Origin: a virus
Virus record (IMG/VR): IMGVR_UViG_3300046002_004029
Coordinates: 3,576 to 67,575 of that record
Length of the DNA stretch: 64,000 bases
Direction: 5' to 3' (one strand)
This document shows positions 7,216 through 32,406 of the stretch, piece after piece. The notes under the pieces were generated by a model. It saw only the letters and a list, made by a program, of their open reading frames with translations, was not told where the DNA came from and ran no database searches. A program made the translations under genes and the position numbers. Within the stretch, counting starts at the first letter, position 1; each line of letters opens with the position of its first letter.

Positions 7216-7295
7216 CGCAATGTGTGTATAGCATTTCCCTACAGTCTAGATACGATAGGATATTGATAATATATATGAATCTAAATAATAACATC

Positions 7296-7535
7296 ATGAC
7301 AAGATTAAATGATCTGAATCCGCAGACAAGACTAGACCTAATTGAAGAATCAAGATGGCAGTTCGGACAAGAGCACGTTGCTGAATGTATTGCAGACAAC
7401 GCTGAGATAAACGGTATGTGCGACTGGAGTAAGACTAGGCAAGGAGCAGCTTACTGGGCATGGATAGACGCTGGTAGTCCAGATGATTCGATCATCCCTT
7501 TTAACAATCGAGTGTTCGATCCGCTAAGCAACTAA
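7296..7535 (+). CDS. Early hypothetical protein
   Basis: ATG downstream of the promoter at 7239. Contains a W-x4-G-x2-YW motif. Confidence 0.6.
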   Translation: MTRLNDLNPQTRLDLIEESRWQFGQEHVAECIADNAEINGMCDWSKTRQGAAYWAWIDAGSPDDSIIPFNNRVFDPLSN

Positions 7536-7546
7536 CATAAGGATAT

Positions 7547-7572
7547 AGGTCCCGGTAAACGGGATCTTTTAT
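7547..7572 (+). terminator. Intrinsic terminator
   Basis: AGGTCCCG-gtaaa-CGGGATCT followed by TTTATT. Confidence 0.7.
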
Positions 7573-7797
7573 TGCCCTCTCCCGGGTAATTGGCAGAGCG
7601 AAGCATGCGAGCTAGCGAGCATCGCTCGTGTATAGCACTTACAGTCTGAGTACGGAGAGTATTTGATAATATATATGAATCAAATAAGTAGTAACAATTT
7701 TAAATTAAAATAGAAGTTCTTACAATCTTAACACGAAGAGTATTTGATAATATAAATGTAAGTAAGTAACAAACAAATAACAATAAATAAACAAATT

Positions 7798-8169
7798 ATG
7801 AAAAATCAAGTAGAAATTGAAGTAGTAGAAGTAGAAGTAGTTTTAACTAATAAAGAATTGTTGGCTAATGCGATCGCGAAATTGAGTCCAGAGGACTTGG
7901 CATTGATCTATCCACCTATTGAAAGAGCGAACTTTGTAGTAAGAAAAAGTTGGTTTGGTAGAAATCAAATCATTAGTTTTGTTAACAACAAGAATCAAAG
8001 AGTTACCTATAATCACGATGAGGTACTTAAGATAATGTTACCTAAATTATCAATAATGCCTTGTTGGATTAAAAGAGAATATTGGTCTCAATCAACTGAC
8101 TTACCAAGTAATGTTAGAAATACTAGTGCAATCTTGAGTATTGAACTTCTAGAGCCTACTGAAAAGTAG
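7798..8169 (+). CDS. Early hypothetical protein
   Basis: 123-aa ORF behind the tandem promoters at 7639 and 7720, followed by a hairpin. Confidence 0.7.
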   Translation: MKNQVEIEVVEVEVVLTNKELLANAIAKLSPEDLALIYPPIERANFVVRKSWFGRNQIISFVNNKNQRVTYNHDEVLKIMLPKLSIMPCWIKREYWSQSTDLPSNVRNTSAILSIELLEPTEK

Positions 8170-8260
8170 GTTTTAGGTTTCCTAACGGAAAATGCTATAC
8201 ACTTTACAGTCTGGGTACGACCCAATAACGATAATAATAATGAATCTAAAAACAAACAAT

Positions 8261-8485
8261 ATGAGTCTAGTTAAAAACACTGCAACGAATGCGGCTGAAT
8301 TGTACAAATTACTATCCAAAGCGGATGCTATACAACATCCAAGCTTCTGGCCCAACCCAGGACTAAACAGAATGGATCTATTATTGAATCCTGCCGCAAC
8401 AGATGCGGTCGTATATGAACGCGATGGAAGCGATTACACGATCTCTATCAAGAGTATTACTAACATTGTAACATACGAGAACTAA
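8261..8485 (+). CDS. Early hypothetical protein
   Basis: ATG after the promoter at 8204. Confidence 0.55.
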   Translation: MSLVKNTATNAAELYKLLSKADAIQHPSFWPNPGLNRMDLLLNPAATDAVVYERDGSDYTISIKSITNIVTYEN

Positions 8486-8901: not shown

Positions 8902-9112
8902 GTGACATTAGCCTGTTATTTGTAGTTTAATAGGCTTTTGTCACACTTTTAGCGAATAGCTTAAATGCTATACACCGGCCTGACTTTGTAATATAGTCGG
9001 AAGAGTAGACTCCGTCCAACTTTATATTTAAAGATGCTATACACCGCAGGTGATTAGATCAATTATAGTGACATTAGCCTACTACTTTATTACCTTAATA
9101 CCCTATTGTCAC
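8902..9112. repeat. Pair of GTGACATTAGCC...TGTCAC elements enclosing two TGCTATACAC sites
   Basis: Elements at 8902-8944 and 9068-9112, with 10-mers at 8966 and 9035 between them. The interval is non-coding. Confidence 0.75.
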
Positions 9113-9183: not shown

Positions 9184-9459
9184 ATGGATACTATAATAGA
9201 AAGTAGAGAAATTATAAGATGCTCCGCAGATGACCGATATATATTGGTAGTCAAAGCACAAGGACTTATAATTGGATTAAATTTTATGCAAGGATGTGAA
9301 ATAGGAGAATTAGATTATTTTAGAAAAGAGTATGCAAGCATCGACTATGAATTAACTAATTTCTACAATGCTATACACCAGTCTTTAAGCGGATCTACGG
9401 AGATCGACCGTATTAATCAGGCAATGTGGGGATATGTTAACTTCTCTAATCCTTGTTAA
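9184..9459 (+). CDS. Early hypothetical protein
   Basis: ATG after the promoter at 9124. Confidence 0.6.
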   Translation: MDTIIESREIIRCSADDRYILVVKAQGLIIGLNFMQGCEIGELDYFRKEYASIDYELTNFYNAIHQSLSGSTEIDRINQAMWGYVNFSNPC

Positions 9460-9687
9460 TTCGTAAGGTACTGAGAGACACTACATTATACCTCTCTTAC
9501 TTTTAATACTAATAAACAGTTAATAACCCTTACAATCTGAATACGATAGCGAATTGATAATATATGTGTAACAAATTAAAACTAACATTATGAGTGAGAT
9601 TGAATTAATGGAATTGATTGCGGAAGAGACAGTTTATATACGTGAATGGCGTGATTCTCTTACTATTGAACAAATAAATAGTATATA

Positions 9688-10308
9688 ATGAGTATGCATG
9701 GTACTACCTCTGATGACCTAGATATTTTGACTCGTGAAGAGTTGATCGAGTGGTTATGTTGGAATGATAGAAATGGTTGTTACCGTGACGATGAAGCTAC
9801 AGCCGAATTCGGGGAAATATTACCCTATGAGGAAGCATATTGGATAGCGAAAAGACAAATTAACCAGTAAAATACAATAAAATGAGTGAAAAAAGTAGTA
9901 TAATTTATCGTGGTTTCGAATTTGATTTCGAATTTAACTACACACCGGGTAGACCACAAACTTGGGAAGATCCAGAAGAATATGAAGAATGGGAGATATA
10001 TAATATCACCTTAAATGGAGTTGATGCAGATGACCTGTTAGACCCTATGTTGCAGGATTTTGAAATTGAAGTAATTAATAACCTTAAAGATAATTAAAAT
10101 GACAAATAAAGAATGGTATTTAAGTCTATCTAATGACTTACAAGATAAAGTGGCACATAATTGTAACTCACTTAATGAGTACTATAGATTCGCCCAATGG
10201 TATGATGATAAAAAGGGCGCCTCTATATGCGGAGCGTTTTGTTGGGATGATTCTATTGAAGGTAATGAATTTTGGTATGGTGTTTATAAAACAATGGAGA
10301 ACTTATGA
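9688..10308 (+). CDS. Three small acidic early proteins (9688-9870, 9882-10097, 10099-10308)
   Basis: Tightly packed ORFs after the promoter at 9530. The first two are strongly D/E-rich. Confidence 0.6.
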
Positions 10309-10593
10309 GAAATTATAGTAAAGCATTTAAAATTCTTTTGGCAAGAATTATGTATGAATTGAGAGAAGCCGGGAGATCAGCGGCGTATGCTATACACAGG
10401 TAAGACATGGAAACTTTTAAAAAAGAATTCGAAACAAAAGGCGGTAGCGGTTATTTATTAATCACTAAACGAGATGAAACAGGTAGAAACGATACTTATG
10501 ACATTATAGTTGAAGAAGTATATACATTCCATAATGAGGATGAGGTTATACGTCAAGTAGAAAGTGATATATATAAATATTTATAAAGAAATT

Positions 10594-10767
10594 ATGGCAA
10601 AATTTACAGTAAAAATAACAGAAACTTTGGTTAAAGAAATAGCAGTAATCGCTAGCAATCCAGATATGGCAGTTGGAATAGTGGCGCGAATGTATCGCGA
10701 TGAAGACGTGGTATTAGATTATGCAGATTTTGACGAAGTGAACTTTGAAATAATTATAACAGAGTAA
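10594..10767 (+). CDS. DpnD/PcfM-like small protein
   Basis: KFTVKITETLVKEIAVIA...YRDEDVVLDYADF matches the family pattern. Confidence 0.65.
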   Translation: MAKFTVKITETLVKEIAVIASNPDMAVGIVARMYRDEDVVLDYADFDEVNFEIIITE

Positions 10768-10768
10768 T

Positions 10769-13700
10769 ATGAAACTAATAGAAGTAAGTAAGCAAGGGAA
10801 TTTATATTTCCAAATGAGTGATGGTCGATTTGGTATTATATACCCGAAGAGTGGTTATGTTAGAGTAAGCGGTAAAGGTGCAACAAGAAGTAATATGCAC
10901 TTCCCATTTAGACTATGGCAGATCAATAAGGTGGCTAAAGAGGATTATAGAACTAAAGCGGGAGTATCTAGAGTATTGATACCATCCGTAAAAGAACAGT
11001 TTGAAACGTTGTTAAAGTTTGACAACAGAAATTGTGGTGGCCTTACAATCTAAACACGATTAAGTATTGATAATATATATGAATCTAAAATAAACAAACT
11101 ATGAAAAAATCAATTAAATTCTTAAAGAATAACTTTATTAAACTTGATGGAGTGCTATACACACCCTACTTATTGAGTGATCTACCAACAACTTTTGGTT
11201 TCAATTTTAATAAAGAAAAAGATCAAGACGGATATGGCGAATGGTTTAATTTCAAAGGTTTAACCTATATAATCAAGAAATAATATGATAGAGATAGCGA
11301 ACAATATGAAAGAAGCGTGCCAATATCTAGAGGAAAAGAAGGCTCGTAATCGCGCTAATAGAATTTCTGTGGTAAATACAGATGGTCTGTGTGCAGAGTT
11401 TAATAGTGATGATTATAAACAAATCAAGACAAAAATGAAGTCGTCATATGGCGCAAAAGCAAGTGTATTTAGTAAAACAAAGTTGTGGAATCACTACAAC
11501 TTAACATTAACAGAAATTAAAGAAAAATATTAAAATGAAAGAAATTGTAACAAAATTTAGTGAAAAAGTATTGGTTGAAAACATTGATAACAGCAGTATC
11601 GTAGGCATTCAATGGGGAAGTAGTAACAAATCCCTTGTAATTGAGGCAAGAGACGGAGGCTTTACAGGCTTAGGTAATTGTAGCAGTAGATTATCACTTA
11701 GCAGTTGTTGGGTTGCTGATACTCAGAAGGAATATGTAGAAAGATCTTTAGGTCAGAGAATGGAAGTCAAAGCTTTTGAGTTTGAAACAGTAACTGCCGC
11801 GCTTAAATGGTTTAGTAAATAACAGAAATTATGGCAAAGTTAACTGGATTTGAAAGTTATTTAGTTATTCAGGGATTGAATGATTTAAGAGACAAAATGG
11901 TATTAGATATTATTGAAATAGAACGCAACGGAAAAAATCCGTTGATGACTAAAGAGTATGTAAAAATTACTATAGAGGAAGTTATGGAAAAGATTTTGCT
12001 ATACACTTATAAAACTAAACGATAGAAATTATGGCTGAAACAACAGGACAATTAGATAAATTACTAAGTGATAAAATAGACGAAAAGATTAGAGTGTTTG
12101 GGCAGTATTTAACGGAACAAATTTCTCAATTTTTAAAAGACAATGAAGACTACTCTGGAGATCATTTATATATGGTTAATGGTGGAACTGTTAATGAACC
12201 TAATTTTTCCTATGAATCTTTGGCTATATTTAAAAGAAATATGATAAAAGGCATTTCTAAACAAGTAAAGGATAAAATGATCCTTAAGGAAACTAAAGCA
12301 TTGTTAAAAAAACTAGAATTACTATCATGAGAACACTGAATACTTTTGAAGTTAACGTCATTGAAGCGGCGTTAACTCACCTTAGAGAAATGCACGATGA
12401 CCTTAAAAAAGGAACTGAAGATTTTGTAGATATAGAATTTAGTAATGATGTAGTTATAACTTGCGAGGAACTTTTAAGAATGTTTAAAAACGAAGGTATA
12501 TTCACTTATGAAAACTAAATATATTGCAATGAGAAACGGTAAAGTCCTTGATTGGTCAGTGCTATACACATATGCCGTGGATAAAGGATTAACTGTGCCA
12601 CCTGAACTATTTATGGCAGGAGCACAAGGATTAGATATTAACGAACTGCTAGATCAATTAGATAAAGAATTTGAATTAACAACCTTATGGGGTAAAGACG
12701 GATCATTCATAAAAGTAGTAGAATAATGGAAAAGAAATATAAACGTAATAAAAACGGGGAAGTAGAGGTTGGGGTACTAATATCCGCTGGATTTGGCGCT
12801 GGATGGAGTACTTGGGGAATGCCCGAAGAAGCCTTATTTGACCCAATTATAATAGATTTTGTTGAAAATGACAAACTTTTTACATCCGAATTTGATGAGT
12901 ATATAGAAAATACTTATAACGACTGTTATAGCGGTGGAAGTGGTGGTTTATATGTTTGTTGGATACCCGAAGGCAAGGAATTTAGAATAGATGAATATGA
13001 CGGAGCTGAAAGTTTAGTATTAAAAAATGACCAATCTTGGATAATAGCGTAGTTACAATCTGGACACGAATAACAATTGATAATATAAATGTAACAAATT
13101 AAAAATAAACAAAATGAAAGAGAATTTAACAGCATTAATGAGTATATTAGATGAATTAAGTATTGACCCAGATTCATTCTATGTAATTAGCATTAGACAA
13201 GGATATGTTTCTTTGCAAGGTGAGTTTAACTCCACTATATCCAGCTATTTAATAAAAAAAGGTTTTATAGCAAGCTTTAGTATGTCGGGTTATCCTCAGT
13301 ATATTTTAGGCGTAATTGAAGTAACCTTAACATAACAATTATGACAAATGAACAGTTAGCTTTTCAAAATGCAATAGCTTTTGAACAGTGGATGAGGAAT
13401 ACAGTAAAGACAATACATTATGCAAATAATGAAAAAATGTCTGAGGCTTATAATAGAGTTATGAAAAATTATTTAGAATTGAAATTATATGAGAATGTTA
13501 AACGATAAAGAGGAAGAATTAACAAGATTAGCAGTACTTGAGGGTATGACTGATATGATGGATCATTTAGCTATAGACTTTAAAGTAAATTGGAGAAGTA
13601 TAACTGTTCATCAAAGAAAACGGTTTGGTGATATTGAGGAGTTGCTATACACACTTTGCGTAGAGATGGTTGAAGATCACGGAGTCTTACAGTCTAAATA

Positions 13701-14430
13701 CGATCCAGAAACGATAATATAAATGAACTTAAAACAAATATAATGGAAAAAATTAATAAATTATTTGAAGCGGAAGTAATACAAATTACGGAGTCATATC
13801 CTAGTATTTACTCTAAGGGTGATGTGGTATCCCTATTAGTTACTTTAAGGCATCGTGCCCTACTAGTAATAAATGAGGAACTTAATGGACTGGTAGATGT
13901 GGCATTAGCAGAACGAGGATTAGGGTTTATTACAATAGACCATATGGAAGAGTTTATGTCTTCAGTTAGCGAAAGTTTAGAAAAATCAATATCACACGGC
14001 GAAATAGAATTAGTTGATAATAATAACATTGAATTATCAATGAGTTATGATAATCACGTAACTGTAGAATGTGTTGAAATAGATACAGATACTTTATGCA
14101 GAGAATTGGAAGATATAATGAGAAATGAATATGGAGAATTATTAAATTCTTTAAAAATAAAAGAAGATGAGTAAAGAGCGTGAAAAATTGGAAGTACCTA
14201 AATGGTTCACCGGTCAAGTATATGAAAGCGGTGATACAGTAAGAAATCCATTCAGTGGCGATAGTTATTATCTATCTGGGCCTGAGCTGAGTATGTATGA
14301 CTTCATTATGGGGTGTAATTATATATTAGAAAGGGGACAAGGTCACGATAAAATGTTAGCAGAATTTCATAAAGGTCTTACTTGGTTTAGAAGAGCAAAC
14401 CCAGAAGCATATATGGTTTTATTAGATTAA
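10769..14430 (+). CDS. Array of about 13 small early hypothetical proteins
   Basis: Contiguous co-oriented ORFs at 10769, 11101, 11285, 11535, 11831, 12031, 12327, 12508, 12726, 13114, 13489, 13743 and 14167, with promoters at 11043, 13053 and 13687. No function recognised. Confidence 0.65.
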
Positions 14431-14446
14431 TGTAAAAATATAAATT

Positions 14447-14884
14447 ATGGACGCAACAGAATTAGTGAATATATTGTTTGAAAATGGCGGATTTACATAT
14501 AATTGTAAAACTAAAGAACTTAATCCAAATGAAGGATACTTTGTGTCAATGGTCGGTGAGGGTCAGGTTTATAATGTTAATGGCTTCCATCATTTTGATA
14601 TACTCGAATACTATGCTATACACAGTGAATTATTATCTAGAGGTGATACATTTCTAGGTGGGTGGATATATCAAGACGAAGTATATTTAGATGTGAACGT
14701 ATCGACATTATCAATTGAAAAAGCTATCTATAGAGGTATGATTAATGACCAAAAAGTGATCTACGATGCTTATAACAAAACAGAGATTAAACTACCTAAT
14801 CGTCAAAAATCAGGTACTGAAACTCAACAAAAAGCATATAATACAATGAAAGCAGAACAATTAGCAAATGAATTAATAAGTTAA
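14447..14884 (+). CDS. Conserved phage hypothetical protein (GGFT...GY.VS...GGW...YLDV family)
   Basis: The motif pattern recurs in phage early regions. Function unknown. Confidence 0.6.
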   Translation: MDATELVNILFENGGFTYNCKTKELNPNEGYFVSMVGEGQVYNVNGFHHFDILEYYAIHSELLSRGDTFLGGWIYQDEVYLDVNVSTLSIEKAIYRGMINDQKVIYDAYNKTEIKLPNRQKSGTETQQKAYNTMKAEQLANELIS

Positions 14885-14888
14885 ATAA

Positions 14889-15241
14889 GGGGGCGAATGG
14901 CTTTGACAGGTTATGCAAACTAATACAATCAGCCAGAGAGATAACTGTAAACTAAGGTGAATTTAATAAATGACAACACAGTAAAATTGTTAGACATCAA
15001 TCAGATTGAGGCTAATATGAATATGGTTTTTGCATTGATTAACTCTAATGTTGAAGAGCTAGAAATAGCTGCGTAGTAGACATTAACAAGATTTCTTGGT
15101 TAGATTAAATCAAGTGGTGGTTTTGTCTACACTAGTAGACCCCAGTTGTATGATACTCCAACTTTAAAACCGTATCGACAAGCTGTATAAATTGTATTAA
15201 CTAAAGTAATCTGGACCTGGGTTCGAAACCCAGCGCCTCCA
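14889..15241 (+). ncRNA. ssrA: tmRNA
   Basis: Acceptor stem GGGGGCG/CGCCTCC with a G3-U pair, 5' TTTGAC, T-arm CTGGGTTCGAAACCCAG, and a tag ORF at 14972-15076 ending in IAA*. Confidence 0.92.
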
Positions 15242-15376
15242 CAACTGTTATTTGATCTTAGTGCTAGGAAAATAACAAGCGATTGGACGGAACTAAGCGT
15301 CTCGAATTGCCCTGTAACAACTCAGTGTTACCAGATAAGATAGGTTTGAATCCAAGTATGTGAAGTCTTATCAAAT

Positions 15377-15501
15377 GGTCAAGTGGTGGAATTGGTAGAC
15401 ACTAAACAACTGTATTGAGGTTAAGCGATCCTCACTTTAATAAAAAAATTGATCAACGCAGAAGTGCGGATGCGGTACAGGTTCGAATCCTGTCTTGACC
15501 A
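15377..15501 (+). ncRNA. tRNA-like RNA with an enlarged, non-canonical anticodon region
   Basis: GGTCAAG/CTTGACC stem, TGGTGGAATTGGTAGACAC D-arm and ACAGGTTCGAATCCTGT T-arm. 125 nt. Confidence 0.7.
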
Positions 15502-15578
15502 CGATGTCGGATAGCGACCGAATGAACTTAGTGGTAACAACGGAATAACCTAAGAGAGATTGACAAAAACTCCGTACA

Positions 15579-15671
15579 GATTGAGCGGTAGAATGGCTAA
15601 CTATCTATACCGATTCGGTTAGAGGCAAAAGAAAATAAGCCCTATTGCAGGTTCGAGTCCTGTCTCAATCA
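15579..15671 (+). ncRNA. tRNA-like RNA (no clear anticodon loop)
   Basis: GATTGAG/CTCAATC stem and GCAGGTTCGAGTCCTGT T-arm. 93 nt. Confidence 0.6.
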
Positions 15672-15735
15672 CTAATAATTAAATTAAATACTATGACTAA
15701 TGTAAACTTAGTGGAAACACTATAAACATAACAAT

Positions 15736-15912
15736 AACTAAGTGGCGGAATAGTTTAGCTTGTACCGCAAACGCAAGTGCTTAACGGATAAGCTTAAATA
15801 GTACAGACGCAAAAAGATAAGGATAGAGTCATCGCGGGTGTGGAATGGAAAAAGCCCGTTCGAGTCCTTACTTGGAAATCCACAAATGTAGGTTCGAGCC
15901 CTACCTTAGTTA
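15736..15912 (+). ncRNA. tRNA-like RNA with insertions in the D-loop and anticodon arm
   Basis: AACTAAG/CTTAGTT stem, split D-arm TGGCGGAA...AGACGC and GTAGGTTCGAGCCCTAC T-arm. 177 nt. Confidence 0.65.
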
Positions 15913-16040
15913 CTAATAATAAACGCTATAGTAAAAGTTTTTGCTATACACAACCGCTTGCTAATCAATTAATAATAAAATAAATGTTTACAGTTAATGT
16001 AAGTTTCAGCGTAAACACGTAATAATATAAATATAACCAA

Positions 16041-16472: not shown

Positions 16473-16473
16473 T

Positions 16474-16917: not shown

Positions 16918-16944
16918 TAATATTAATATATAAAAACAAATAAT

Positions 16945-17169
16945 ATGAATGTAAATTTAATTGAAAAACTAGAAGTAAACAGTAGCGCTATCTTTGAAGT
17001 TGCTTACTATCCTAATGTTGAAAGATTATTTATAACTTTCAAAAATGGTAGAGAATATGAATACTTAAATGTACCTATTCATATTATGTGTGGCTTACGT
17101 GAAGCATCGTCTAAAGGTAAATTTCTTAACAAGTATGTTTTAGCACAATACAGGTTTAAGAAAGTATAG
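16945..17169 (+). CDS. KTSC domain protein
   Basis: VNSSAIFEVAY...LFITFKNGREYEYLNVP...ASSKGKFLN. Confidence 0.9.
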   Translation: MNVNLIEKLEVNSSAIFEVAYYPNVERLFITFKNGREYEYLNVPIHIMCGLREASSKGKFLNKYVLAQYRFKKV

Positions 17170-17180
17170 TTGCTATACAC

Positions 17181-17449: not shown

Positions 17450-17462
17450 TAAATTAAATATC

Positions 17463-17900
17463 ATGAGTAGGACAGTAAAACAACAGTACAGAAAATCTAG
17501 AAGATTTGATAAGCAATGCCGAAATAATGGCTGTTGTAGTTATTGTAAGGGTAATAGACTACATAGTTCAAATACAAGAATACAAGCAGCGTCTTACAGT
17601 CTGAACACGATTGTAAAATGATAATATAAATGTAACAAAAACAATTTAATTATGAAAGTAACATTAAGGTTTACATTACCAGAAGATGAAGCACAATATA
17701 ATCAATATTCTAAAGCTCCAGATATGGCTTATGCTTTATGGGATATAGCTCATAATCTTAAAAAAGAATGTATTAGATTAATAGAGGCTGATGCAAATGG
17801 TGGCCTAGCATATGACGCATATGATGGCGTTGAAGTAGTATTTACTCAAATATATAATATATTAGAGCAACATAATATAAACACTGATGAATTAATGTAG
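17463..17900 (+). CDS. Two small hypothetical proteins (17463-17621, basic and Cys-rich; 17652-17900)
   Basis: MSRT...CRNNGCCSYCKGNR motif, and an 82-aa ORF after the promoter at 17594. Confidence 0.55.
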
Positions 17901-17901
17901 T

Positions 17902-18489
17902 ATGAAAAAATTAACAAATTACCAACTAAACAAAGTATCTAAGAGTCTTGATTGTTATCTAGAACTCGCCACAAGTAAGGACTTTACCGAAGGTGTTTTA
18001 TGGTATGAGCAAGCCCATTTTATTTGTAGAGATTTAGCTAAAAAGTATAACACTACTACATATATTGTAGCCGGTATTATAAGTTCACTATCTCCTAGAA
18101 ATAAATGGCCTCAAAATATTAAAGATGCAGAAATAGTGTTGAGTGCTATACACGCTGGCCTTGAGCCAAAAGATGTTAAAGTATGCACTTTCCATAGAAA
18201 TAAAGATAAAGCATTTTCTATAGCTAAAGGCGAATCAATTATTACCGATCAAAGTATGAAAACTTTTAGTTTCATTAATAACATTGCTAACCTTAATAAT
18301 TTCTATATAACCATTGATGTGTGGCATTTAAGGGCTTGTTTTGGTAAAGATATACGTACAACTCCAGGTAAAATTGCTTATGAACAATTACGAAAATTAA
18401 CCATAAGTAAAGCTAAAAAATTAAATTTACAAGGATTTGAGTATCAAGCTGTTTTATGGAACTCTGTTAAAAATAATTTTAAAAAATAG
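17902..18489 (+). CDS. Conserved phage protein, possibly HhH-glycosylase-like fold
   Basis: WY...SLSPRNKW..N...TIDVWHLR...QAVLW motif set. Confidence 0.5.
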   Translation: MKKLTNYQLNKVSKSLDCYLELATSKDFTEGVLWYEQAHFICRDLAKKYNTTTYIVAGIISSLSPRNKWPQNIKDAEIVLSAIHAGLEPKDVKVCTFHRNKDKAFSIAKGESIITDQSMKTFSFINNIANLNNFYITIDVWHLRACFGKDIRTTPGKIAYEQLRKLTISKAKKLNLQGFEYQAVLWNSVKNNFKK

Positions 18490-18879: not shown

Positions 18880-19557
18880 ATGAAAATATGGCATATATCA
18901 GATACTCACGGGTATCATGACCTATTGAAAGTTCCTGATGGAATAGATATGGTTATTCATTCCGGCGATTGTAGTAATCCAAGAGATCCTTATAATAATG
19001 AACCAGAAGTAAGAGAATTTATACATTGGTATAAAAATTTACCTATAAAACATAAAATATATGTAGCTGGTAACCACGATACTAGTATTGAAAAAGGTTT
19101 AGTTAGCGTTTCTCAATTCTATGAATATAATATTCATTATTTAGAAAATGATTACGTGGACATTGAAGGTATTAAAATATTTGGTTCACCTAATACACCG
19201 AATTTTGGTAATTGGGCTTTCATGAAAGATAGAGCTAAACTGGAAAGACATTGGAAACTTGCTATACACGAAGAATGTGATATTATTGTAACTCACGGTC
19301 CGCCAAAAGGAATGTTAGATTTATCAGTAAATAGAGACCATAAACTAGAATTCTGCGGTGATAAATCTTTACTTAATAGAGTATTAGAAATACAACCAGC
19401 ATACCATTTATTTGGACATATTCATAATACTGGTGATATAGTAAATGCTGGAATACAAAAATTAAGTACTCATAATACTTGGTTTAGTAATGGATCAGTG
19501 GTAACAGATAGAAAGTTTGGAATATTAACTAGTAATGGCAATATATTTAAACTATGA
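18880..19557 (+). CDS. Calcineurin-like metallophosphoesterase
   Basis: SDTHG, HSGD, AGNHD, THGPP and FGHIH motifs. Confidence 0.93.
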   Translation: MKIWHISDTHGYHDLLKVPDGIDMVIHSGDCSNPRDPYNNEPEVREFIHWYKNLPIKHKIYVAGNHDTSIEKGLVSVSQFYEYNIHYLENDYVDIEGIKIFGSPNTPNFGNWAFMKDRAKLERHWKLAIHEECDIIVTHGPPKGMLDLSVNRDHKLEFCGDKSLLNRVLEIQPAYHLFGHIHNTGDIVNAGIQKLSTHNTWFSNGSVVTDRKFGILTSNGNIFKL

Positions 19558-21072: not shown

Positions 21073-21358
21073 ATTTAATAATGGTAATGGCGCAACATTA
21101 TGTCATAAATGTCGTGCAATAATTTCTACAGGTAAAATGACTGATGATTTATATTGCGAACAATGTCTTAATGATCCATCTCTTTACGGCAAAATTGCTG
21201 TATCTAAAACAAATAACAGTAACTACGATGGTGTAATGCTTAACAGTAATATAATTGATGAAGCCAGCCAGTTTGTAAAACCCGGCAGTGCTATACACAG
21301 TTTCTGGGATCAAATGGATCAAGAGGTTCATAAAGGATTAAATGATCTAAATATATAG
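21056..21358 (+). CDS. Zn-finger hypothetical protein
   Basis: CHKC...CEQC. Confidence 0.6.
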   Translation: MKPIYKFNNGNGATLCHKCRAIISTGKMTDDLYCEQCLNDPSLYGKIAVSKTNNSNYDGVMLNSNIIDEASQFVKPGSAIHSFWDQMDQEVHKGLNDLNI

Positions 21359-24101: not shown

Positions 24102-24662
24102 ATGGCAGAAAAGAAAGAAGTGGAAGTATTAACGCTTAACAAAAAGTTAGCAATAATACAAACAGAATTTAAGTCTAAAAAGTCTAGATTCAATTCATTT
24201 GGAAAGTACAACTTTAGATCGGCTGAAGATATTTTAGAAGCTACCAAACCATTTTTACTAAGACTTGGTGTAACTGTTGTTGTAACAGAAGAACTTATTA
24301 CATCAAACCAATTGTTCCCTATCTTAAAGTCTACAGCGACAATTTCCGACGGAAGTGGTGCTATACACGCTGTAGCAATCGTCGGGGTTGATCTTGACCA
24401 AAAAGGTATGCAAATGCCTCAGAAGTTTGGCTCAGCATCAAGTTATGGTAAAAAATATGCGCTTGGTAATCTGTTCTTAATTGATGATACTCAAGATGCA
24501 GATCACGGAAAGGCAGAGCCTGTCGCAAAGATTAAACTTGATGTTACCGATGCTGCTTTTGATAAAGCATTACAATTTGTAACAACAGGGGGCAAACTCG
24601 ACCTAATTAAAAACAAGTATGACTTATCACCAGAAGCTGAAACTATTCTAGGAAAACTTTAA
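24102..24662 (+). CDS. ERF-family single-strand annealing protein
   Basis: NSFGKYNFRSAEDIL...QKFGSASSYGKKYAL.NLF.IDD..DAD. Confidence 0.9.
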   Translation: MAEKKEVEVLTLNKKLAIIQTEFKSKKSRFNSFGKYNFRSAEDILEATKPFLLRLGVTVVVTEELITSNQLFPILKSTATISDGSGAIHAVAIVGVDLDQKGMQMPQKFGSASSYGKKYALGNLFLIDDTQDADHGKAEPVAKIKLDVTDAAFDKALQFVTTGGKLDLIKNKYDLSPEAETILGKL

Positions 24663-25753: not shown

Positions 25754-27466
25754 ATGAACGTAGAGACAACAGAAATTAACGGCTTCTTAATTGATTCGTT
25801 TAATCAACATGGTTTAGATGAAGGAAAAACACAGGGGATTTGTCCTCTGTGTTCACCTGATAGAAAACCTAAGAATGAGAAAGCTAAATGCGCGTCCTAT
25901 GATTGGGAACGCGGTATTGGAACTTGTCATAACTGTAACAAGACATTCCAATTACATACTTATAAAAGAAAAGGTAATGGCGATAAGATATACCTTAAAC
26001 CTGAATCAGTTACAATTTCACCACCAAGTTCTAAAATAGTTGAATGGTTTGGAACACGCGGAATATCAGAACAAACATTAGTTGATTTAAGAGTTTCAGA
26101 AGGTATTGAATTTATGCCTCAAACTGGTAAAACTGAGAATGCTATACATTTTAACTATTTTATTGGAGATGAATTAATCAACATTAAGTACAGAGATGGA
26201 CATAAACATTTCAAATTATTTAAAGGAGCTGAAAAAGTATTCTACAATATTGATAGCATTGTAGGGTTTGAATATTGTATCATTGTTGAAGGAGAAATGG
26301 ATGTATTGGCATTACACGAAGTTGGAATTACTAATTCTATTTCAGTTCCAAATGGTGCTACGCTACATTCTAACAATCTAGAATATCTAGATAACTGCAT
26401 TGATTACTTTGAAGACAAAGCAAAAATAATTATTGCAGTTGATTCAGATGCTGCTGGACAAGCGCTACAAACAGAATTGGTTCGAAGACTAGGATCAGAA
26501 ACGTGTTATATTGCAACTTTCGATGATTGTAAAGATGCAAATGAGTATTTAATTAAATATGGTAAGGAAGCATTATCTCAAAGAATATCGAGAGCTAAAC
26601 CTGTGCCATTAGAAAATGTTACAACTTTTAGAGACATTGAAGATGAGGTTACTGATTTTGTTAGGAATGGATTTAAACCGGGCTTCCAAATTGGCCTCGA
26701 TAATTTCGACAGTATTTTTTCTACTTATACAGGCCAGTTTATTACTGTTACCGGTATACCTAGCTCTGGAAAGTCTGATTTTGTTGACCAAATGGTTATA
26801 GGTTACAATGCAAAATATGGTTGGAAAACTGCTTATGCATCTCCAGAGAATTCGCCTACATATTTGCATGCTCATAAGTTAATGAGAAAGACTTGGCAGG
26901 GAATGCCTGGTATTGAGGATATTAAGACTGAAAAGTGGAACCAAGTAGCAGATCAAGTTAATGATAATTATTTCTTCATTGATATGGAACGTTATACATT
27001 AGATTCCGTACTTCGTAAAGGAGCTGAATTAGTTAAACGTAAAGGAATAAAGTGCCTTGTTATTGATCCATTTAACAAAGTTAGAGATAACGATGCTTCC
27101 GGCGATGTAAACGTTTATACCTTAGAGTACCTTACTAAAATAGAAATCTTTGCTAAAAAATATGATGTATTAGTTATGATTGTTGCTCACCCCACTAAAA
27201 TGTACAAAGATAGTAGTGGTAAAATTGAAGAGCCAACTATGTACAACATTAAAGGCGGTGGTGAATGGTATGACGCTTCTTATCACGGACTATTAGTTCA
27301 TAGAAATTATGAAGATAAAACTGTAAAAGTAAAGGTACTTAAATGTAAATTCCAAAACTTAGGTGAGAATGGAGCTGAATGTCATTTCAAATGGGATCCA
27401 GCGTCGGGATGCTTCATACCACACGAACCGATTGCAAGTAGCAATGACAAAATGCCGTGGGAATAA
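25754..27466 (+). CDS. T7-like/Twinkle primase-helicase
   Basis: Zn finger CPLC..CHNC, TOPRIM VEGEMD/DSDAAG/KDANE, Walker A GIPSSGKS, and VIDP and VAHP. Confidence 0.95.
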   Translation: MNVETTEINGFLIDSFNQHGLDEGKTQGICPLCSPDRKPKNEKAKCASYDWERGIGTCHNCNKTFQLHTYKRKGNGDKIYLKPESVTISPPSSKIVEWFGTRGISEQTLVDLRVSEGIEFMPQTGKTENAIHFNYFIGDELINIKYRDGHKHFKLFKGAEKVFYNIDSIVGFEYCIIVEGEMDVLALHEVGITNSISVPNGATLHSNNLEYLDNCIDYFEDKAKIIIAVDSDAAGQALQTELVRRLGSETCYIATFDDCKDANEYLIKYGKEALSQRISRAKPVPLENVTTFRDIEDEVTDFVRNGFKPGFQIGLDNFDSIFSTYTGQFITVTGIPSSGKSDFVDQMVIGYNAKYGWKTAYASPENSPTYLHAHKLMRKTWQGMPGIEDIKTEKWNQVADQVNDNYFFIDMERYTLDSVLRKGAELVKRKGIKCLVIDPFNKVRDNDASGDVNVYTLEYLTKIEIFAKKYDVLVMIVAHPTKMYKDSSGKIEEPTMYNIKGGGEWYDASYHGLLVHRNYEDKTVKVKVLKCKFQNLGENGAECHFKWDPASGCFIPHEPIASSNDKMPWE

Positions 27467-27818: not shown

Positions 27819-28589
27819 ATGAAAGAAAGGTATGAAACGCAATACAAATCAATATTATGGGAATGCCTACAATATGGCATAAACAGAAACGATAGAACAG
27901 GTGTTGGGTGTAAATCTATATTTAACGCCTCACTTAAGATTGATATATCTGAACGTTTCCCTATAATCACAGGTAGAAAAATGTTTCAAAAAACTTTTGA
28001 CACAGAATTCGATTGGTTTATGAATGGTGAAACAAATGTAAAAAGATTCCAAGACGCCGGCGTAAAAATATGGGACGCTTGGGCAGATGAGAATGGAGAC
28101 TTAGGACCTGTTTATGGGCATCAAATGCGCAATTTTAACGATCAAAACGTAGATCAAATGCAAATACTTATAAAAAATTTAATAGCTGATCCAGACGGCC
28201 GTAGGCACATCATAAGTTTATGGAATCCAGCACAATTGGATCAAATGCGATTACCGCCTTGTTATTTATATTTTCAATTCTTTGTAGATAACGGTAAACT
28301 TAATATGTTTGTTATACAACGATCTGGTGATATGTTTTTAGGCGTGCCTTATGATATTGCTTTATTCACTAAGATACTTTTATACGTATCGTGGAGGGTA
28401 GGTTTGAAAGCTAACTTACTAGAAGTACAAATTATAGATGCTCATATTTATAATAATCAACTCGATGCTATACACAAATACTTCGATGAAGAGTCATTTG
28501 ACTTGCCAAAGTACACATATGAAAACGGAGCATTAAACCTAATTAATTATGAACACGGACCAATAATAACAGCAAAAGTGGCTATTTAA
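27819..28589 (+). CDS. Thymidylate synthase-family enzyme (Asn->Asp variant, possible dCMP methylase/hydroxymethylase)
   Basis: DRTGVG, DLGPVYGHQ, LPPC, QRSGDMFLGVPYD and DAHIY. Confidence 0.9.
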   Translation: MKERYETQYKSILWECLQYGINRNDRTGVGCKSIFNASLKIDISERFPIITGRKMFQKTFDTEFDWFMNGETNVKRFQDAGVKIWDAWADENGDLGPVYGHQMRNFNDQNVDQMQILIKNLIADPDGRRHIISLWNPAQLDQMRLPPCYLYFQFFVDNGKLNMFVIQRSGDMFLGVPYDIALFTKILLYVSWRVGLKANLLEVQIIDAHIYNNQLDAIHKYFDEESFDLPKYTYENGALNLINYEHGPIITAKVAI

Positions 28590-29474: not shown

Positions 29475-29788
29475 TGAGAGAAAAAACTATTGTTTTTCGT
29501 GATCCAACAGTTGAATCAGTTGTAGACAAATTTGTTGAAAGATCCGATGTTGGCTTTAAAAAGTATGGTACAACTATGCGTAATGACCCATCTGATTTAT
29601 TTGTATGGCTAAACCATTTACAAGAAGAATTGATGGACGCAACGTTATATATCCAACGTTTAAAAGAAGAAGTAACAAATCTACGCGAGGAAGAGTCATT
29701 AATGAATGATCTAGAAATAATGGAGGTTGTGGACGCGTTTGTAGAACGCGGGTATCCATATTCAATTACTATTGATGAAGAGGATTAG
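29474..29788 (+). CDS. All-alpha NTP pyrophosphatase-like small protein
   Basis: GFKKYGTT...WLNHLQEELMDATLY. Confidence 0.6.
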   Translation: MREKTIVFRDPTVESVVDKFVERSDVGFKKYGTTMRNDPSDLFVWLNHLQEELMDATLYIQRLKEEVTNLREEESLMNDLEIMEVVDAFVERGYPYSITIDEED

Positions 29789-30221
29789 TAGAAAAAAAGG
29801 ACCGGTTGTTTCAAAAGTGGTATCATATGATGGTATCACTTTTGCCTCTGGCCTTGAGAAGTATATGTATATAGCTTTAAAGAAAGCTGATATTGATTTT
29901 GACTATGAAGGCAAAACGTTTGAGCTTGTTCCATCGTTTACTTTTAAAAATGAATGCTTTGAAAGGCAATCAAATGGCAAGGGTGATTTTATAAATAGAG
30001 GGTGTAAAAAAGTATTAAACTTGAAGTATACACCTGATTTTCTTGGTATTGATTTCATTATAGAAACTAAAGGCAGGGCTAATGATTCATTTCCTTTACG
30101 TTGGAAGTTATTCAAAGAGTGGATGATGGATAATAATGACGATAGAACCTTATATAAACCCCAAAATAATAGCGAGTGCGACAAGACAATAAAGTTAATT
30201 ATGGACAAGAGAAATTCTTAG
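29772..30221 (+). CDS. T7 endonuclease I-like Holliday junction resolvase
   Basis: FASGLE...YE...YTPDF...IIETKG. Confidence 0.85.
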   Translation: MMKRISRKKGPVVSKVVSYDGITFASGLEKYMYIALKKADIDFDYEGKTFELVPSFTFKNECFERQSNGKGDFINRGCKKVLNLKYTPDFLGIDFIIETKGRANDSFPLRWKLFKEWMMDNNDDRTLYKPQNNSECDKTIKLIMDKRNS

Positions 30222-30351
30222 CCCGTAAACGCTATGCCGAAAGACAGTTTGATAAATGGATCAAATGGTCATTTGAGGTATGCGGTAAAATAAAATATAA
30301 AGATATAATAAGAATGCAGGAAGAATTAAATATAACACAAAAACCTTAATT

Positions 30352-30534
30352 ATGAAAAAAGCAAAAATGAAAGTTGTTCCCGAAATTGAACCAGAAAATG
30401 AAAGTTATTGGTGTATTACAGTAGGTTTTTATCCAGGAATATTGTTTGGAATACGGACATATGATGAACCAACATTTTCAACACACGTATTATATTTACC
30501 ATTCGTAGACATCGCAATCGAAATATCAAAATAA
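30352..30534 (+). CDS. Hypothetical protein
   Basis: Small ORF before the RNR gene. Confidence 0.5.
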   Translation: MKKAKMKVVPEIEPENESYWCITVGFYPGILFGIRTYDEPTFSTHVLYLPFVDIAIEISK

Positions 30535-30537
30535 AAA

Positions 30538-32406
30538 ATGAGTTTAAGTTTAGACAAACAAATTTTATCGGACATTACAGTATACACAAAGTATGCAAAA
30601 TATTTACCAAGTAAAGAGAGAAGAGAAACTTGGGAAGAATTAGTAACAAGGAACTTAGAGATGCATGTCTCTAGGTTTCCTCAAATGAAAGAATCAATTG
30701 AACAAATTTACAAGAATTTTGTCTTCAATAAAAAGGTTTTACCTTCGATGCGAAGCTTACAGTTTGGCGGTAAAGCTATTGAACTTAATAATGCTCGTGT
30801 TTATAACTGTGCTTTTCTACCTATTGATAGTATCTATAGTTTTTCTGAGACTATGTTTTTATTACTTGGTGGAACCGGTGTTGGTTATAGTGTCCAAAAT
30901 CACCAAATTGAAAAGTTACCTGAAATTAGAAAGCCTAATTACGAACGTAAAAAAAGATATGTAGTTCAAGATTCTATTATCGGGTGGGCCGACGCGGTTA
31001 AGGTATTGCTTAAGTCTTATACTGGTGAACTAACGTCACACATCCAGTTTGATCTGTCTGATATAAGACAAAAAGGCGCATTATTAGTTACAGCTGGGGG
31101 TAAAGCTCCTGGACCAGAGCCATTAAGAATTGCGTTAGTCAAAATTGAAGCTATCTTACGTAATAAAAAAGATAGGTCAAAACTTACAGATATTGAATGC
31201 CATAGAATACAATGTTTTATTGCAGATTCTGTTTTAGCTGGAGGTATTAGAAGGGCAGCTATGATCGCTTTATTTGATCTTGATAGTGATGCAATGTTAA
31301 ATTGTAAAGCTGGTAGTTGGTGGGAAACAATGCCTGAACTTGGTAGAGCTAATAATTCTGTAGTATTGCTACGCCATAAGATTGATAAGAAAACATTTGA
31401 CAAAGTATGGGAACGTATTGAAGCTTCTGGATGTGGTGAGCCTGGTATATACTTAACTAATGATAAAGATTGGGGCACTAACCCTTGTTGCGAAATCGCT
31501 TTAAGACCTTATCAGTTTTGTAATTTGACGGAAATTAATATGTCAGATATTGAGGATCAAGAGGATTTTAATGCTAGATCTTCTGCCGCCGCGTTTATAG
31601 GAACATTACAGGCATCGTATACTGATTTTCATTACTTACGTGATATATGGAGAAAAACAACAGAGAAAGACGCATTACTTGGTGTATCTATGACTGGTAT
31701 CGCGTCAGAGTCAAACTTAAAATTAAATTATGAAGAAGCCGCGCAAGTCGTTAAAGACACAAACAACGTTATCTCGGCTGCTCTCGGAATCAATAAAGCC
31801 GCAAGAACCACAGCTGTCAAACCTGCCGGAACCACTAGTTTGGTTTTGGGGACTTCTTCTGGGATCCACGCCTGGCATAATGATTATTATATCCGTCGTA
31901 TGCGATTAGGTAAAAATGAAGCTATCTATTCTTACCTTGCTATACACAATCCAGAATTGCTAGAAGATGAATATTTTAATCCAACACTACAGGCGGTCAT
32001 TTCTGTTCCGCAGAAGGCTCCTAATGGCGCTATAACACGACACGAGTCAACGCTTGATCTATTGGAAAGAGTAAAACTTATATCTAAAGATTGGGTTAAA
32101 ACTGGGCATACAAAAGGCGAAAATACACATAACGTTTCTTGTACAGTTTCAGTGCGGGATGATGAATGGAAAATAGTTGGTGAATGGATGTGGGCAAATA
32201 AAGATTATTATAATGGTCTATCTGTTTTACCATTTCACGGTGGTACATATAAACAAACGCCATTTGAAGATTGCACTAAAGAATTATACGAGGAAATGAT
32301 GTTAAAACTGCATACCATAGATTTATCTAAAGTAATAGAAATACAGGATAATACAAATTTTAGTGATGTAGTAGCTTGTGGAGGCGGTAATTGTGAAATA
32401 ACTTAA
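30538..32406 (+). CDS. nrdJ: Class II (AdoCbl-dependent) ribonucleotide reductase
   Basis: YNCAF, GGTGVG, TNPCCEI, FCNL, VKPAGT and C-terminal CGGGNC. No NrdB nearby. Confidence 0.9.
   Translation: MSLSLDKQILSDITVYTKYAKYLPSKERRETWEELVTRNLEMHVSRFPQMKESIEQIYKNFVFNKKVLPSMRSLQFGGKAIELNNARVYNCAFLPIDSIYSFSETMFLLLGGTGVGYSVQNHQIEKLPEIRKPNYERKKRYVVQDSIIGWADAVKVLLKSYTGELTSHIQFDLSDIRQKGALLVTAGGKAPGPEPLRIALVKIEAILRNKKDRSKLTDIECHRIQCFIADSVLAGGIRRAAMIALFDLDSDAMLNCKAGSWWETMPELGRANNSVVLLRHKIDKKTFDKVWERIEASGCGEPGIYLTNDKDWGTNPCCEIALRPYQFCNLTEINMSDIEDQEDFNARSSAAAFIGTLQASYTDFHYLRDIWRKTTEKDALLGVSMTGIASESNLKLNYEEAAQVVKDTNNVISAALGINKAARTTAVKPAGTTSLVLGTSSGIHAWHNDYYIRRMRLGKNEAIYSYLAIHNPELLEDEYFNPTLQAVISVPQKAPNGAITRHESTLDLLERVKLISKDWVKTGHTKGENTHNVSCTVSVRDDEWKIVGEWMWANKDYYNGLSVLPFHGGTYKQTPFEDCTKELYEEMMLKLHTIDLSKVIEIQDNTNFSDVVACGGGNCEIT

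What the first reader, a model, noticed from the sequence alone, without database searches (positions are those of the whole stretch)
7224..31947. Strand-polarised 10-mer TGCTATACAC written into early genes with a density gradient
Seen: 18 exact forward copies (8193-31938) and 2 reverse copies (7224, 7628), plus near-copies at 8326, 22197 and 26140. I found none in the ~38 kb of late genes. A rough chance expectation at ~30% GC is under 0.1 per strand. Thirteen copies lie within unrelated ORFs in two different frames (reading AIH or LYT), including ERF, the ThyA homolog and NrdJ, so selection acts on the nucleic acid rather than the protein. Spacing widens from under 1 kb near the putative terminus to about 1 kb, then 2-4 kb. 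Orientation flips between 7637 and 8193, and three copies abut early promoters. Inference: a directional signal of the Chi/KOPS type, for example ratchet sites for DNA entry, antitermination or loading sites, self-marks against a nuclease, or decoys for a host defence protein.
Basis: partly seen in the sequence, partly recalled or inferred. Interest (0 to 1): 0.88.

Follow-up and report, generated by a model that had tools for sequence, protein, structure and literature searches.

The report
Strand-specific nick-site-like motif in phage
A ten-letter DNA word written about once per kilobase on one strand of this lake phage's early genes looks like the marks where some phages cut one DNA strand, a habit whose purpose is still unknown.

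Summary
TGCTATACAC occurs 18 times forward and 2 times reversed (0.15 expected). It is the most enriched 10-mer of this 67.6 kb lake-water Bacteroidota-type phage.

The same word, with the same layout, is found in many IMG/VR relatives. Sites turn over and are regained at new places. Sub-lineages switch letters 9-10 (AC, AT, GC, GT). No flanking letters are conserved, and position within genes is random. Spacing is over-dispersed.

The word is not enriched in 401 Bacteroidota genomes, so it is not a Chi- or KOPS-type host word.

Its closest known match is the nick-associated motif of Pseudomonas phage tf and its relatives, which shares these features and the genome layout.

Best reading (about 0.5): recognition sites of a phage-encoded strand-specific nickase. 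The candidate reader is an 84-aa late protein at 6369-6623(-), which co-occurs with the motif. Physical nicks could not be tested.

One feature is new and unexplained. Reversed copies, often in tandem, sit at a fixed distance upstream of early promoters.

The parts
7224..7233 (-). exact 10-mer, reversed; ends 31 nt upstream of the GATAATA box of early promoter P1
7628..7637 (-). exact 10-mer, reversed; lies after terminator 7547-7567 and ends 27 nt upstream of the box of promoter P2
8193..8202 (+). exact 10-mer, forward; lies after a hairpin plus T-run and ends 27 nt upstream of the box of promoter P4
8966..8975 (+). exact 10-mer, non-coding
9035..9044 (+). exact 10-mer, non-coding
9369..9378 (+). 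exact 10-mer
10388..10397 (+). exact 10-mer, 10 nt before an ATG at 10407
11153..11162 (+). exact 10-mer in ORF 11101-11283 (LYT frame); orthologous site in G001
11997..12006 (+). exact 10-mer in ORF 11831-12025
12560..12569 (+). exact 10-mer in ORF 12508-12726
13643..13652 (+). exact 10-mer in ORF 13489-13722; ends 60 nt upstream of a promoter box
14614..14623 (+). exact 10-mer in ORF 14447-14884, inside a 2.4 kb insert that G001 lacks
15942..15951 (+). exact 10-mer, non-coding, inside the same insert
17171..17180 (+). exact 10-mer just after ORF 16945-17169
18144..18153 (+). exact 10-mer in DUF7178 ORF 17902-18489
19260..19269 (+). exact 10-mer in phosphoesterase ORF 18880-19557
21289..21298 (+). 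exact 10-mer in ORF 21056-21358
24359..24368 (+). exact 10-mer in ERF gene. G003 has the same site, G004 has the GT variant, G001 has a decayed copy, and G002 regained a copy about 25 nt upstream in another frame
28466..28475 (+). exact 10-mer in thymidylate synthase gene
31938..31947 (+). exact 10-mer in ribonucleotide reductase gene
8326..8335 (+). one-mismatch copy TGCTATACAA
22197..22206 (+). one-mismatch copy TGCTATACAT (the AT variant is common in relatives)
26140..26149 (+). one-mismatch copy TGCTATACAT in primase/helicase; some relatives have an exact copy at about this place
34798..34807 (-). one-mismatch copy in the 2419-aa late ORF; several relatives have an exact copy in their giant late ORF on the same strand
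6369..6623 (-). candidate reader or nickase. It is an 84-aa basic protein and the first gene of the late strand, next to the junction. Invariant residues are D47, D49, H50, N61, R62 and N64
6624..7223 (.). non-coding junction between the late and early gene blocks: an AT-rich part, the inverted repeat GTGACGTTAGCC..., and a GC-richer pyrimidine-skewed part. By analogy with tf it is the likely place of the physical genome ends (inference)
7240..7285 (+). early promoter P1 (TACAGTCT...TTGATAATATATATG, a Bacteroidota TAnnTTTG-like -7 box); drives the 79-aa gene 7296-7535
7640..7685 (+). early promoter P2
7721..7766 (+). early promoter P3 (no 10-mer beside it)
8205..8250 (+). early promoter P4
9125..9170 (+). 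early promoter of the same family
9531..9576 (+). early promoter of the same family
11044..11089 (+). early promoter of the same family
13054..13099 (+). early promoter of the same family
13688..13733 (+). early promoter of the same family
17595..17640 (+). last early promoter of the family

Best explanation
The 10-mer is the recognition site of a phage-encoded, sequence- and strand-specific nicking system. Such systems are known from T5, phiKMV-like and LUZ24/tf-like phages.

Proposed course of events:
- Late in infection a phage protein cuts one strand of progeny DNA at each TGCTATACAC. The candidate is the 84-aa product of 6369-6623(-), encoded at the head of the late strand.
- Virion DNA then carries single-strand interruptions about every 1 kb on the + strand of the early region. 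That strand is the non-template strand, so early transcription of the incoming DNA is not blocked.
- The interruptions become sparser with distance from the junction of the early and late blocks, which is probably the genome end that enters first.
- After entry the nicks are sealed.

Reversed copies, often in tandem, lie about 27 nt upstream of the -7/-10 box of several early promoters. This suggests that the same reader, or nicks on the other strand, also act on these promoters.

Shown here: the motif, its polarity, gradient, regular spacing, turnover, lineage-specific variants, absence from host-type genomes, and co-occurrence with the late-module gene.

Inferred: that the sites are nicked, which protein does it, where the genome ends lie, and any purpose.
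For: 1. Anatomy matches proven nick motifs.
- tf has 14 nicks, all in the top strand, in 5'-TACT/RTGMC-3'. Its relatives use TACTATGAC, and 11 of 14 nicks lie in the left half (PMC3517423: abstract, section 14 and passages of the discussion).
- In the tf record I found 14 forward and 0 reverse sites, with gaps of 1392, 721, 1052, 1358, 2008, 1336, 2575, 1054, 2100, 5096, 3926, 9129 and 3266. Twelve sites lie on the coding strand of the + strand early block, and the late block is convergent on the - strand. Our phage has the same layout.
- Rembedalsseter has 13 WACTRTGAC, all on one strand and matching nanopore coverage drops. The word is enriched in 61 relatives (9.0 against 0.7), is spread through and outside CDS, and its function is unknown (PMC11780129: passages).

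2. Our word behaves the same way.
- It occurs 18+/2- against 0.15 expected.
- 58 of 80 primase loci of relatives hold it, mostly on +.
- Of 25 full relative records, 16 hold 5-20 copies and the reversed control pattern scores 0-2. The exact word was counted in G001-G005, and TGCTATACRY in the other 20 records.
- 55 non-redundant forward sites carry no flank information.
- There is no preference for place in an ORF or for distance to the next start: median 239 against 249 for random places, 67 sites.

3. Spacing is over-dispersed in both systems.
- G000 9369-19260: CV 0.21, P=1.5e-5.
- G001: CV 0.12, P=1.3e-4.
- tf, first 10 sites: CV 0.37, P=0.003.
- The sub-ranges were chosen after seeing the data.

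4. The motif evolves in concert.
- G004 uses TGCTATACGT(G) four times, including at the ERF site where G000 and G003 have AC.
- G002 regained a copy nearby in another frame.
- A 2.4 kb insert of G000 brings its own two copies.

- The 84-aa family is found by HMM in 13 of 14 motif-bearing full genomes and in 0 of 8 motif-poor ones. The one miss, G002, has its contig end where the gene would lie.
- On the TerL and portal trees the motif-less genomes are one clade (1 change).
- On the early-module primase tree the label needs 4 changes, at least 3 of them forced. Motif content of early DNA therefore follows the late module, not early-gene ancestry.
- The tf paper says that the T5 nicking genes sciA and sciB map to the late region.

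6. Hints on the protein.
- D, D-H and N-R-x-N are invariant.
- The AlphaFold model shows helix-helix-beta-beta-helix, mean pLDDT 68.6.
- The nearest Pfam-bearing ESM clusters are HNH_3 and HNH, scores 0.91-0.92.
Against: - No physical evidence of nicks. The only public runs holding the phage are kept as contigs.
- In tf every site is on one strand genome-wide. Here the orientation flips at the junction and in the late block, so it follows transcription. The reversed copies stand at a fixed 21-33 nt from promoter boxes, often as tandem arrays with an 11-14 bp period. That looks more like operators or iterons for a DNA-binding protein than like nick sites.
- The candidate protein has no Pfam hit, no PDB sequence hit and no Foldseek hit. 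It has no homolog in tf or in INPHARED by tblastn. Its HNH likeness rests on weak leads.
- Its co-occurrence with the motif could reflect any gene of the late module. On the late-gene trees there is only one change.
- About 5 of roughly 96 in-ORF copies lie on the template strand of conserved genes.
Confidence: 0.5

Rival explanations
1. The word is the operator of a phage DNA-binding regulator and no cutting occurs. The protein binds the arrays just upstream of the early promoters to switch them off or on. The single sites scattered in the early genes are auxiliary sites. They are kept in the orientation that lets RNA polymerase pass, or that blocks traffic coming the other way.
For: - In 14 genomes, 40 of 220 GATAATA boxes in the early region have a copy within 75 nt upstream. 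The nearest copy ends 21-33 nt upstream in 30 of these (9 forward, 21 reversed).
- Tandem arrays of 2-3 copies have an 11-14 bp period.
- The copies sit between a terminator and the next promoter.
- From my own recall, not from any call: phage P1 C1 repressor has scattered asymmetric operators.
Against: - Most copies (88 of 131 exact copies in 13 genomes) are forward and have no promoter box within 80 nt downstream.
- A double-strand DNA binder gives no ready reason for near-uniform polarity, kilobase-regular spacing, or the gradient.
- Proven nick motifs show all of these features.
Confidence: 0.2
2. The word is a single-element promoter, or a sigma-dependent pause site, for RNA polymerase carrying the phage sigma-like protein (22840-23604). 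It reads like an extended -10 element (TGnTATAnn).
For: - The phage encodes a sigma-like protein (phrog_351, E 7e-22; Pfam Sigma70_r2 below the cut-off).
- Copies are co-oriented with genes.
- The form TG-n-TATA resembles an extended -10 element; this is my own reading.
Against: - Copies are not enriched upstream of gene starts.
- No letters are conserved downstream.
- Tandem copies 12 nt apart are odd for promoters.
- The sigma gene is present in motif-less relatives at 58-69% identity.
- Regions upstream of late genes lack the word.
Confidence: 0.08
3. The word acts in RNA. UGCUAUACAC in early transcripts is a cleavage or binding site, for example for a phage endoribonuclease that shuts off early messages.
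For: Of 96 in-ORF copies, 82 are on the coding strand, including those in late genes. The word is enriched in early genes.
Against: - Reversed copies and arrays lie in spacers after terminators and upstream of promoters, at a fixed distance from the promoter box. That points to a DNA-level role.
- No RNA data exist for this phage.
Confidence: 0.07
4. The word is a Chi- or KOPS-like signal read by a host nuclease or translocase, or a priming site for the gp4-like primase on the lagging-strand template.
For: - The polarity flips at the junction, and density is highest near it.
- The + strand is the lagging-strand template for a rightward fork (inference).
Against: - In 401 Bacteroidota genomes the word occurs 0-6 times as a rule (maximum 22), like its reversed control. 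The true host is unknown.
- Ten letters is long for Chi.
- Letters 9-10 change in concert within phage lineages.
- 42 kb of late genes almost lack the word, so it cannot serve general lagging-strand priming.
- The primase is present in motif-less relatives.
Confidence: 0.06

Closest known systems
Nick-associated motif of LUZ24/tf-like Pseudomonas phages (5'-TACT/RTGMC-3', WACTRTGAC)
   Same: - An exact 9-10 nt asymmetric word with 13-20 copies.
- The copies lie on the coding strand of a + strand early block that starts at a cluster of promoters.
- Spacing is about 1 kb and widens to several kb.
- The word occurs inside and outside genes without positional preference.
- It is conserved across many relatives, with one-letter variants by lineage.
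- The late block is convergent.

   Different: - The word itself, the host phylum and the gene set differ.
- Here the orientation flips at the junction and in the late block, whereas tf has 0 reverse sites.
- Here reversed and tandem copies sit at a fixed distance upstream of early promoters, whereas tf has none in its first 2 kb.
- Nicks are proven in tf and untested here.
Localized single-strand interruptions of T5 and of phiKMV-like phages
   Same: Site-specific nicks in one strand, unevenly spread along the genome. Nicking genes are late, and nicks are repaired early and reappear late. All of this is as told in PMC3517423.
   Different: The consensus sequences differ: R/GCGCRGG in T5 and CGACxxxxxCCTA/CTCCGG in phiKMV-like phages. 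They have far fewer major sites. I did not examine their genomes here.
Chi (RecBCD/AddAB) and KOPS (FtsK) polar words
   Same: Short, strand-polarised words whose orientation flips at a special point of the replicon.
   Different: Chi and KOPS are host-chromosome words, present hundreds of times. This word is at chance level in 401 Bacteroidota genomes, and it is confined to one block of a phage genome.

Membership tests
Phage nick-associated motif (localized single-strand interruptions) | Physical single-strand breaks at the motif in virion DNA | not testable with these tools
   Only Logan contigs of DNA runs hold the phage; there are no raw reads
Phage nick-associated motif (localized single-strand interruptions) | Short exact asymmetric word far above chance | tested here: met
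   20 copies against 0.15 expected; top 10-mer of the window
Phage nick-associated motif (localized single-strand interruptions) | All copies on one strand | tested here: inconclusive
   18 of 20 are on + in the window. The 2 reversed copies lie at the junction. In 13 genomes, 82 of 96 in-ORF copies are on the coding strand. tf has 14 of 14 on one strand
Phage nick-associated motif (localized single-strand interruptions) | Uneven spread, dense in one part of the genome | tested here: met
   All exact copies lie in 7.2-32 kb, and gaps widen from about 1 kb to 2-4 kb. tf shows the same pattern
Phage nick-associated motif (localized single-strand interruptions) | Word conserved in relatives, with lineage-specific variants | tested here: met
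Phage nick-associated motif (localized single-strand interruptions) | A phage-encoded nickase | tested here: inconclusive
   The candidate 84-aa late protein co-occurs with the motif (13 of 14 against 0 of 8; trees). It has only weak HNH leads and no Pfam, PDB or Foldseek hit
Chi / KOPS type host polar word | Strong over-representation in the host chromosome | tested here: not met
   In 401 Bacteroidota genomes the counts match the reversed control, and likewise in 5 further genomes. The true host is unknown
boxA / nut-type antitermination RNA element | Likeness to the host rrn leader boxA | tested here: not met
   No such word in the rrn leaders and spacer of two Bacteroidota genomes. Bacterial matches are not beside rRNA genes
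Phage-specific promoter (T7-type or sigma-specific) | Placed upstream of genes, with a conserved start region | tested here: not met
   Distance to the next start is like that of random places. There is no flank information
Operator or iteron of a DNA-binding protein | Clustered copies at a fixed distance from promoters | tested here: met
   In 30 of the 40 promoter boxes with a nearby copy, the nearest copy ends 21-33 nt upstream of the GATAATA box. Tandem arrays have an 11-14 bp period. This covers only the minority of copies near promoters

The most novel reading that the evidence does not exclude
The 84-aa basic late protein is a new kind of minimal His-Me-finger nickase that reads TGCTATACAC. 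It nicks the non-template strand about once per kilobase. The nicks serve as swivels or entry marks for transcription-coupled entry of the early end of the genome. The inverted tandem arrays at about -50 of early promoters tie nicking, or the bound enzyme, to early promoter control. Natural motif-less sister clades and early/late-module recombinants in lake viromes would then make the 50-year-old question 'what are phage genome nicks for?' directly testable.
Probability: 0.15. Interest if true: 0.8.

Novelty: new variant of a known kind. Interest (0 to 1): 0.62.

Why it matters
Site-specific nicks in phage DNA have been known since T5, yet both papers I read call their function unknown, and neither names the enzyme for the tf group.

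If this word marks nicks, several things follow:
- The phenomenon extends to an abundant, uncultured group of freshwater Bacteroidota-type phages. At least 445 IMG/VR contigs encode the related primase.
- There is a concrete candidate enzyme.
- There are natural controls: a sister clade without the motif, lineages with changed letters, and genomes whose early module sits beside a late module of another lineage.
- There is a new link between the sites and early promoters.

If the sites are not nicked, the word is still a strongly selected, polar, kilobase-spaced signal of unknown mechanism.

Tried and rejected
- RNA evidence: no RNA holder listed.
- Read laying on four runs returned contigs only. 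Unitig depths differ (800 at 6685-7749 against 462 and 244-635 beside it), but they cannot show ends, nicks or a terminal repeat.
- Host word (Chi, KOPS or uptake sequence): rejected for the genomes sampled.
- boxA mimic: rejected.
- A seeming second polar word in motif-less relatives (GGCAACGTCGGGAT) is a protein repeat, GNVGIGTTSP, in tail-fibre genes.
- Clade-B relatives have no analogous word. Their top 10-mer, TTACAAACAA, lies upstream of a promoter box where I looked in G005.
- The 53-nt match to Cellulophaga phage phi14:2 is the tmRNA gene, not the motif region. The first 30 kb of phi14:2 has no such word.
- crAss-type virion RNA polymerase: the 2419-aa protein has no DFDxD and no tblastn or PHROG hit.
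- Gene-content correlation on the 80 partial loci was confounded by coverage.
- The predicted terminator scan added little.
- For the 84-aa family:
  - Pfam: no hit for the 84-aa protein, its 44 aligned members or nine fused relatives; one fused relative has a sub-threshold DUF6973 match.
  - PDB sequence search found only chance rows.
  - Foldseek against PDB gave nothing.
  - There is no homolog in tf or INPHARED.
- The exact word is in none of the papers searched.
- Supplements of the papers were not opened, so the tf supplementary figures and the phi14:2 promoter tables may bear on details.

Full report
**Observation.** TGCTATACAC occurs 18 times on + (8193-31938) and twice on - (7224, 7628). 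Shuffles give 0.15. The whole record is 67,575 b, the window is bases 3576-67575, and no further exact copy exists. One-mismatch copies are on + at 8326, 22197 and 26140, and on - at 34798 and 44278. It is the most enriched 10-mer of the window.

**The genome.**
- Genes on + from about 7.3 to 32.6 kb are early and DNA-metabolism genes: a sigma-like protein, ERF, exonuclease, T7-gp4-like primase/helicase, ThyA, MazG and ribonucleotide reductase.
- All other genes are on -. They include large terminase, portal, virion proteins and a 2419-aa ORF.
- Composition skews flip at about 7.5 and 32.5 kb.
- The nearest cultured relatives, by primase, are Bacteroidota phages at 44% identity or less.
- The runs that hold the phage are lake-water metagenomes.
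- A family of about ten early promoters lies on + between 7.2 and 17.6 kb. Each has TTACAGTCT, about 20 nt of spacer, then TTGATAATATATATG, a -7 box of the Bacteroidota TAnnTTTG type. That consensus is recalled, not from a call.

**Relatives.**
- The primase finds 445 IMG/VR stretches, of which 80 loci were kept. 58 of the 80 hold the exact word, mostly on + upstream of the primase.
- Among full records, G001 has 15 copies, G002 has 11, G003 has 5, and G004 and G005 have 0. In the other 20 records TGCTATACRY occurs 0-20 times, and the reversed control pattern 0-2 times.
- The layout recurs:
  - Reversed copies, often 2-3 in tandem with an 11-14 bp period and GC or AT at letters 9-10, sit at the left edge of the early block.
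  - Forward AC copies run through the early block.
  - One copy on the late coding strand sits in the giant late ORF.
- G004 uses TGCTATACGT(G).
- At the ERF site, G000 and G003 have AC, G004 has GT (changing His to Arg), G001 has decayed, and G002 has a new copy about 25 nt upstream in another frame.
- A 2.4 kb insert of G000 that is absent from G001 carries two copies of its own.

**Properties.**
- In 13 motif-bearing genomes there are 131 exact copies. 82 are in ORFs on the same strand, 14 are in ORFs on the other strand, and 35 are intergenic. The frames are AIH 51, LYT 27 and CYT 4.
- Only about 5 of the 14 opposite-strand copies lie in conserved gene families.
- 55 non-redundant forward sites show no information outside the ten letters.
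- Place within ORFs and distance to the next start codon are like those of random places.
- Spacing is over-dispersed: G000 9369-19260 has CV 0.21 (P=1.5e-5) and G001 has CV 0.12 (P=1.3e-4). The ranges were chosen after seeing the data.
- Near promoters the copy ends 21-33 nt (mode 27) upstream of the GATAATA box, in either orientation: 9 forward and 21 reversed among the 40 boxes with a copy within 75 nt. It usually lies between an upstream terminator and the promoter.

**What it is not.**
- Not a host chromosome word. Five plus 401 Bacteroidota genomes hold it at the level of the reversed control, and the matches I looked at are ordinary genic places.
- Not like rrn leaders.
- Not placed like a promoter.
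- No crAss-type virion polymerase is evident.
- The word is in no paper of the library.

**Closest known.**
- The tf paper (abstract, section 14 and discussion passages read) reports 14 nicks, all in the top strand, in TACT/RTGMC. 11 of the 14 lie in the left half, relatives use TACTATGAC, and the authors propose co-evolution of nickase and sites.
- The tf record shows the same genome plan and the same widening, over-dispersed spacing.
- The Rembedalsseter paper (passages read) shows that 13 one-strand motif copies equal nanopore coverage drops. It also reports enrichment in 61 relatives, no positional preference and unknown function.

**Candidate reader.**
- Of 623 protein clusters from 22 genomes, the family of 6369-6623(-) tracks the motif best. 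By HMM it is in 13 of 14 motif-bearing and 0 of 8 motif-poor genomes. The miss, G002, ends its contig where the gene would lie.
- The gene is the first of the late strand. It lies 0.5-2.3 kb from the first reversed copy (my arithmetic).
- On the TerL and portal trees the motif-less genomes form one clade. On the primase tree the label needs 4 changes, at least 3 of them forced. So the motif content of early DNA follows the late module.
- The protein is basic, with invariant D47, D49, H50, N61, R62 and N64.
- The model has two helices, a hairpin and a helix, with mean pLDDT 68.6.
- The ESM Atlas places HNH clusters nearest among those with a Pfam family, at 0.91-0.92.
- Pfam, PDB and Foldseek give nothing.
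- The family has 679 relatives in one search and 189 representatives in another, some fused to longer proteins.

**Verdict.** The finding is real and strongly selected. It most likely marks strand-specific nick sites (about 0.5). The promoter-coupled reversed arrays are not known from nicked phages and keep a DNA-binding regulator reading alive (0.2). Nicks, the enzyme, the genome ends and the purpose are all inferred.

Noticed in passing
window 14889-15244 (+) and 15377-15501 (+): The phage encodes a tmRNA (Rfam RF00023, 77.4 bits) and a 125-nt tRNA-like match (RF00005, 38.1 bits) that ARAGORN does not call. Both lie in a 2.4 kb insert that G001 lacks. The 5' part of the tmRNA is 92.6% identical over 53 nt to Cellulophaga phage phi14:2 4054-4106. 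That place lies in phi14:2's early non-coding stretch, near where a preprint reports two abundant early non-coding RNAs.
   Followed up: partly
window 6679-6722, 8902-8936, 9068-9102: The inverted repeat GTGACGTTAGCCTACTA...CTAATGTCAC recurs at the junction and between early genes. Like elements stand at the same place in G001 and in motif-less G005.
   Followed up: no
window 6842-7220: A GC-richer, pyrimidine-skewed non-coding stretch with short direct repeats lies between the late and early blocks. G001 has a counterpart with GATACG repeats. It may hold the genome ends or an origin.
   Followed up: no
window 5225-5719 (-): A homing-endonuclease-like ORF (phrog_314, E 3e-19) that is absent from the five relatives compared.
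   Followed up: no
G000 record ends (window 62843-64000 and the 3.5 kb before the window): ORFs at the start of the record repeat those at its end: the same tblastn targets appear for both. The record therefore overlaps itself by roughly 1.2 kb. This is an assembly overlap, not proof of a terminal repeat.
   Followed up: partly
window 27819-28589 (+): The ThyA-like gene is 75% identical in G001 but only 24-35% in G002-G005, although its neighbours are conserved. This suggests replacement by another thymidylate-synthase-family enzyme.
   Followed up: no
window 32712-39971 (-): A 2419-aa late ORF with no PHROG family and no phage tblastn hit. Relatives have ORFs of 2500-3000 aa at the same place.
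   Followed up: partly
G005 (L093-L096) and G004 (L089-L092), tail-fibre genes: Nine to 15 copies of a DNA repeat that encodes GNVGIGTTSP. At first it mimicked a polar motif.
   Followed up: yes
G005, about 9.2 and 8.8 kb upstream of the primase: The motif-less relative has the palindrome TGTCATGACA after gene ends in its early control region. It may be its own operator.
   Followed up: no
window 22840-23604 (+): A sigma-factor-like gene conserved in all five relatives compared, at 56-74% identity. Its promoters are unknown.
   Followed up: partly
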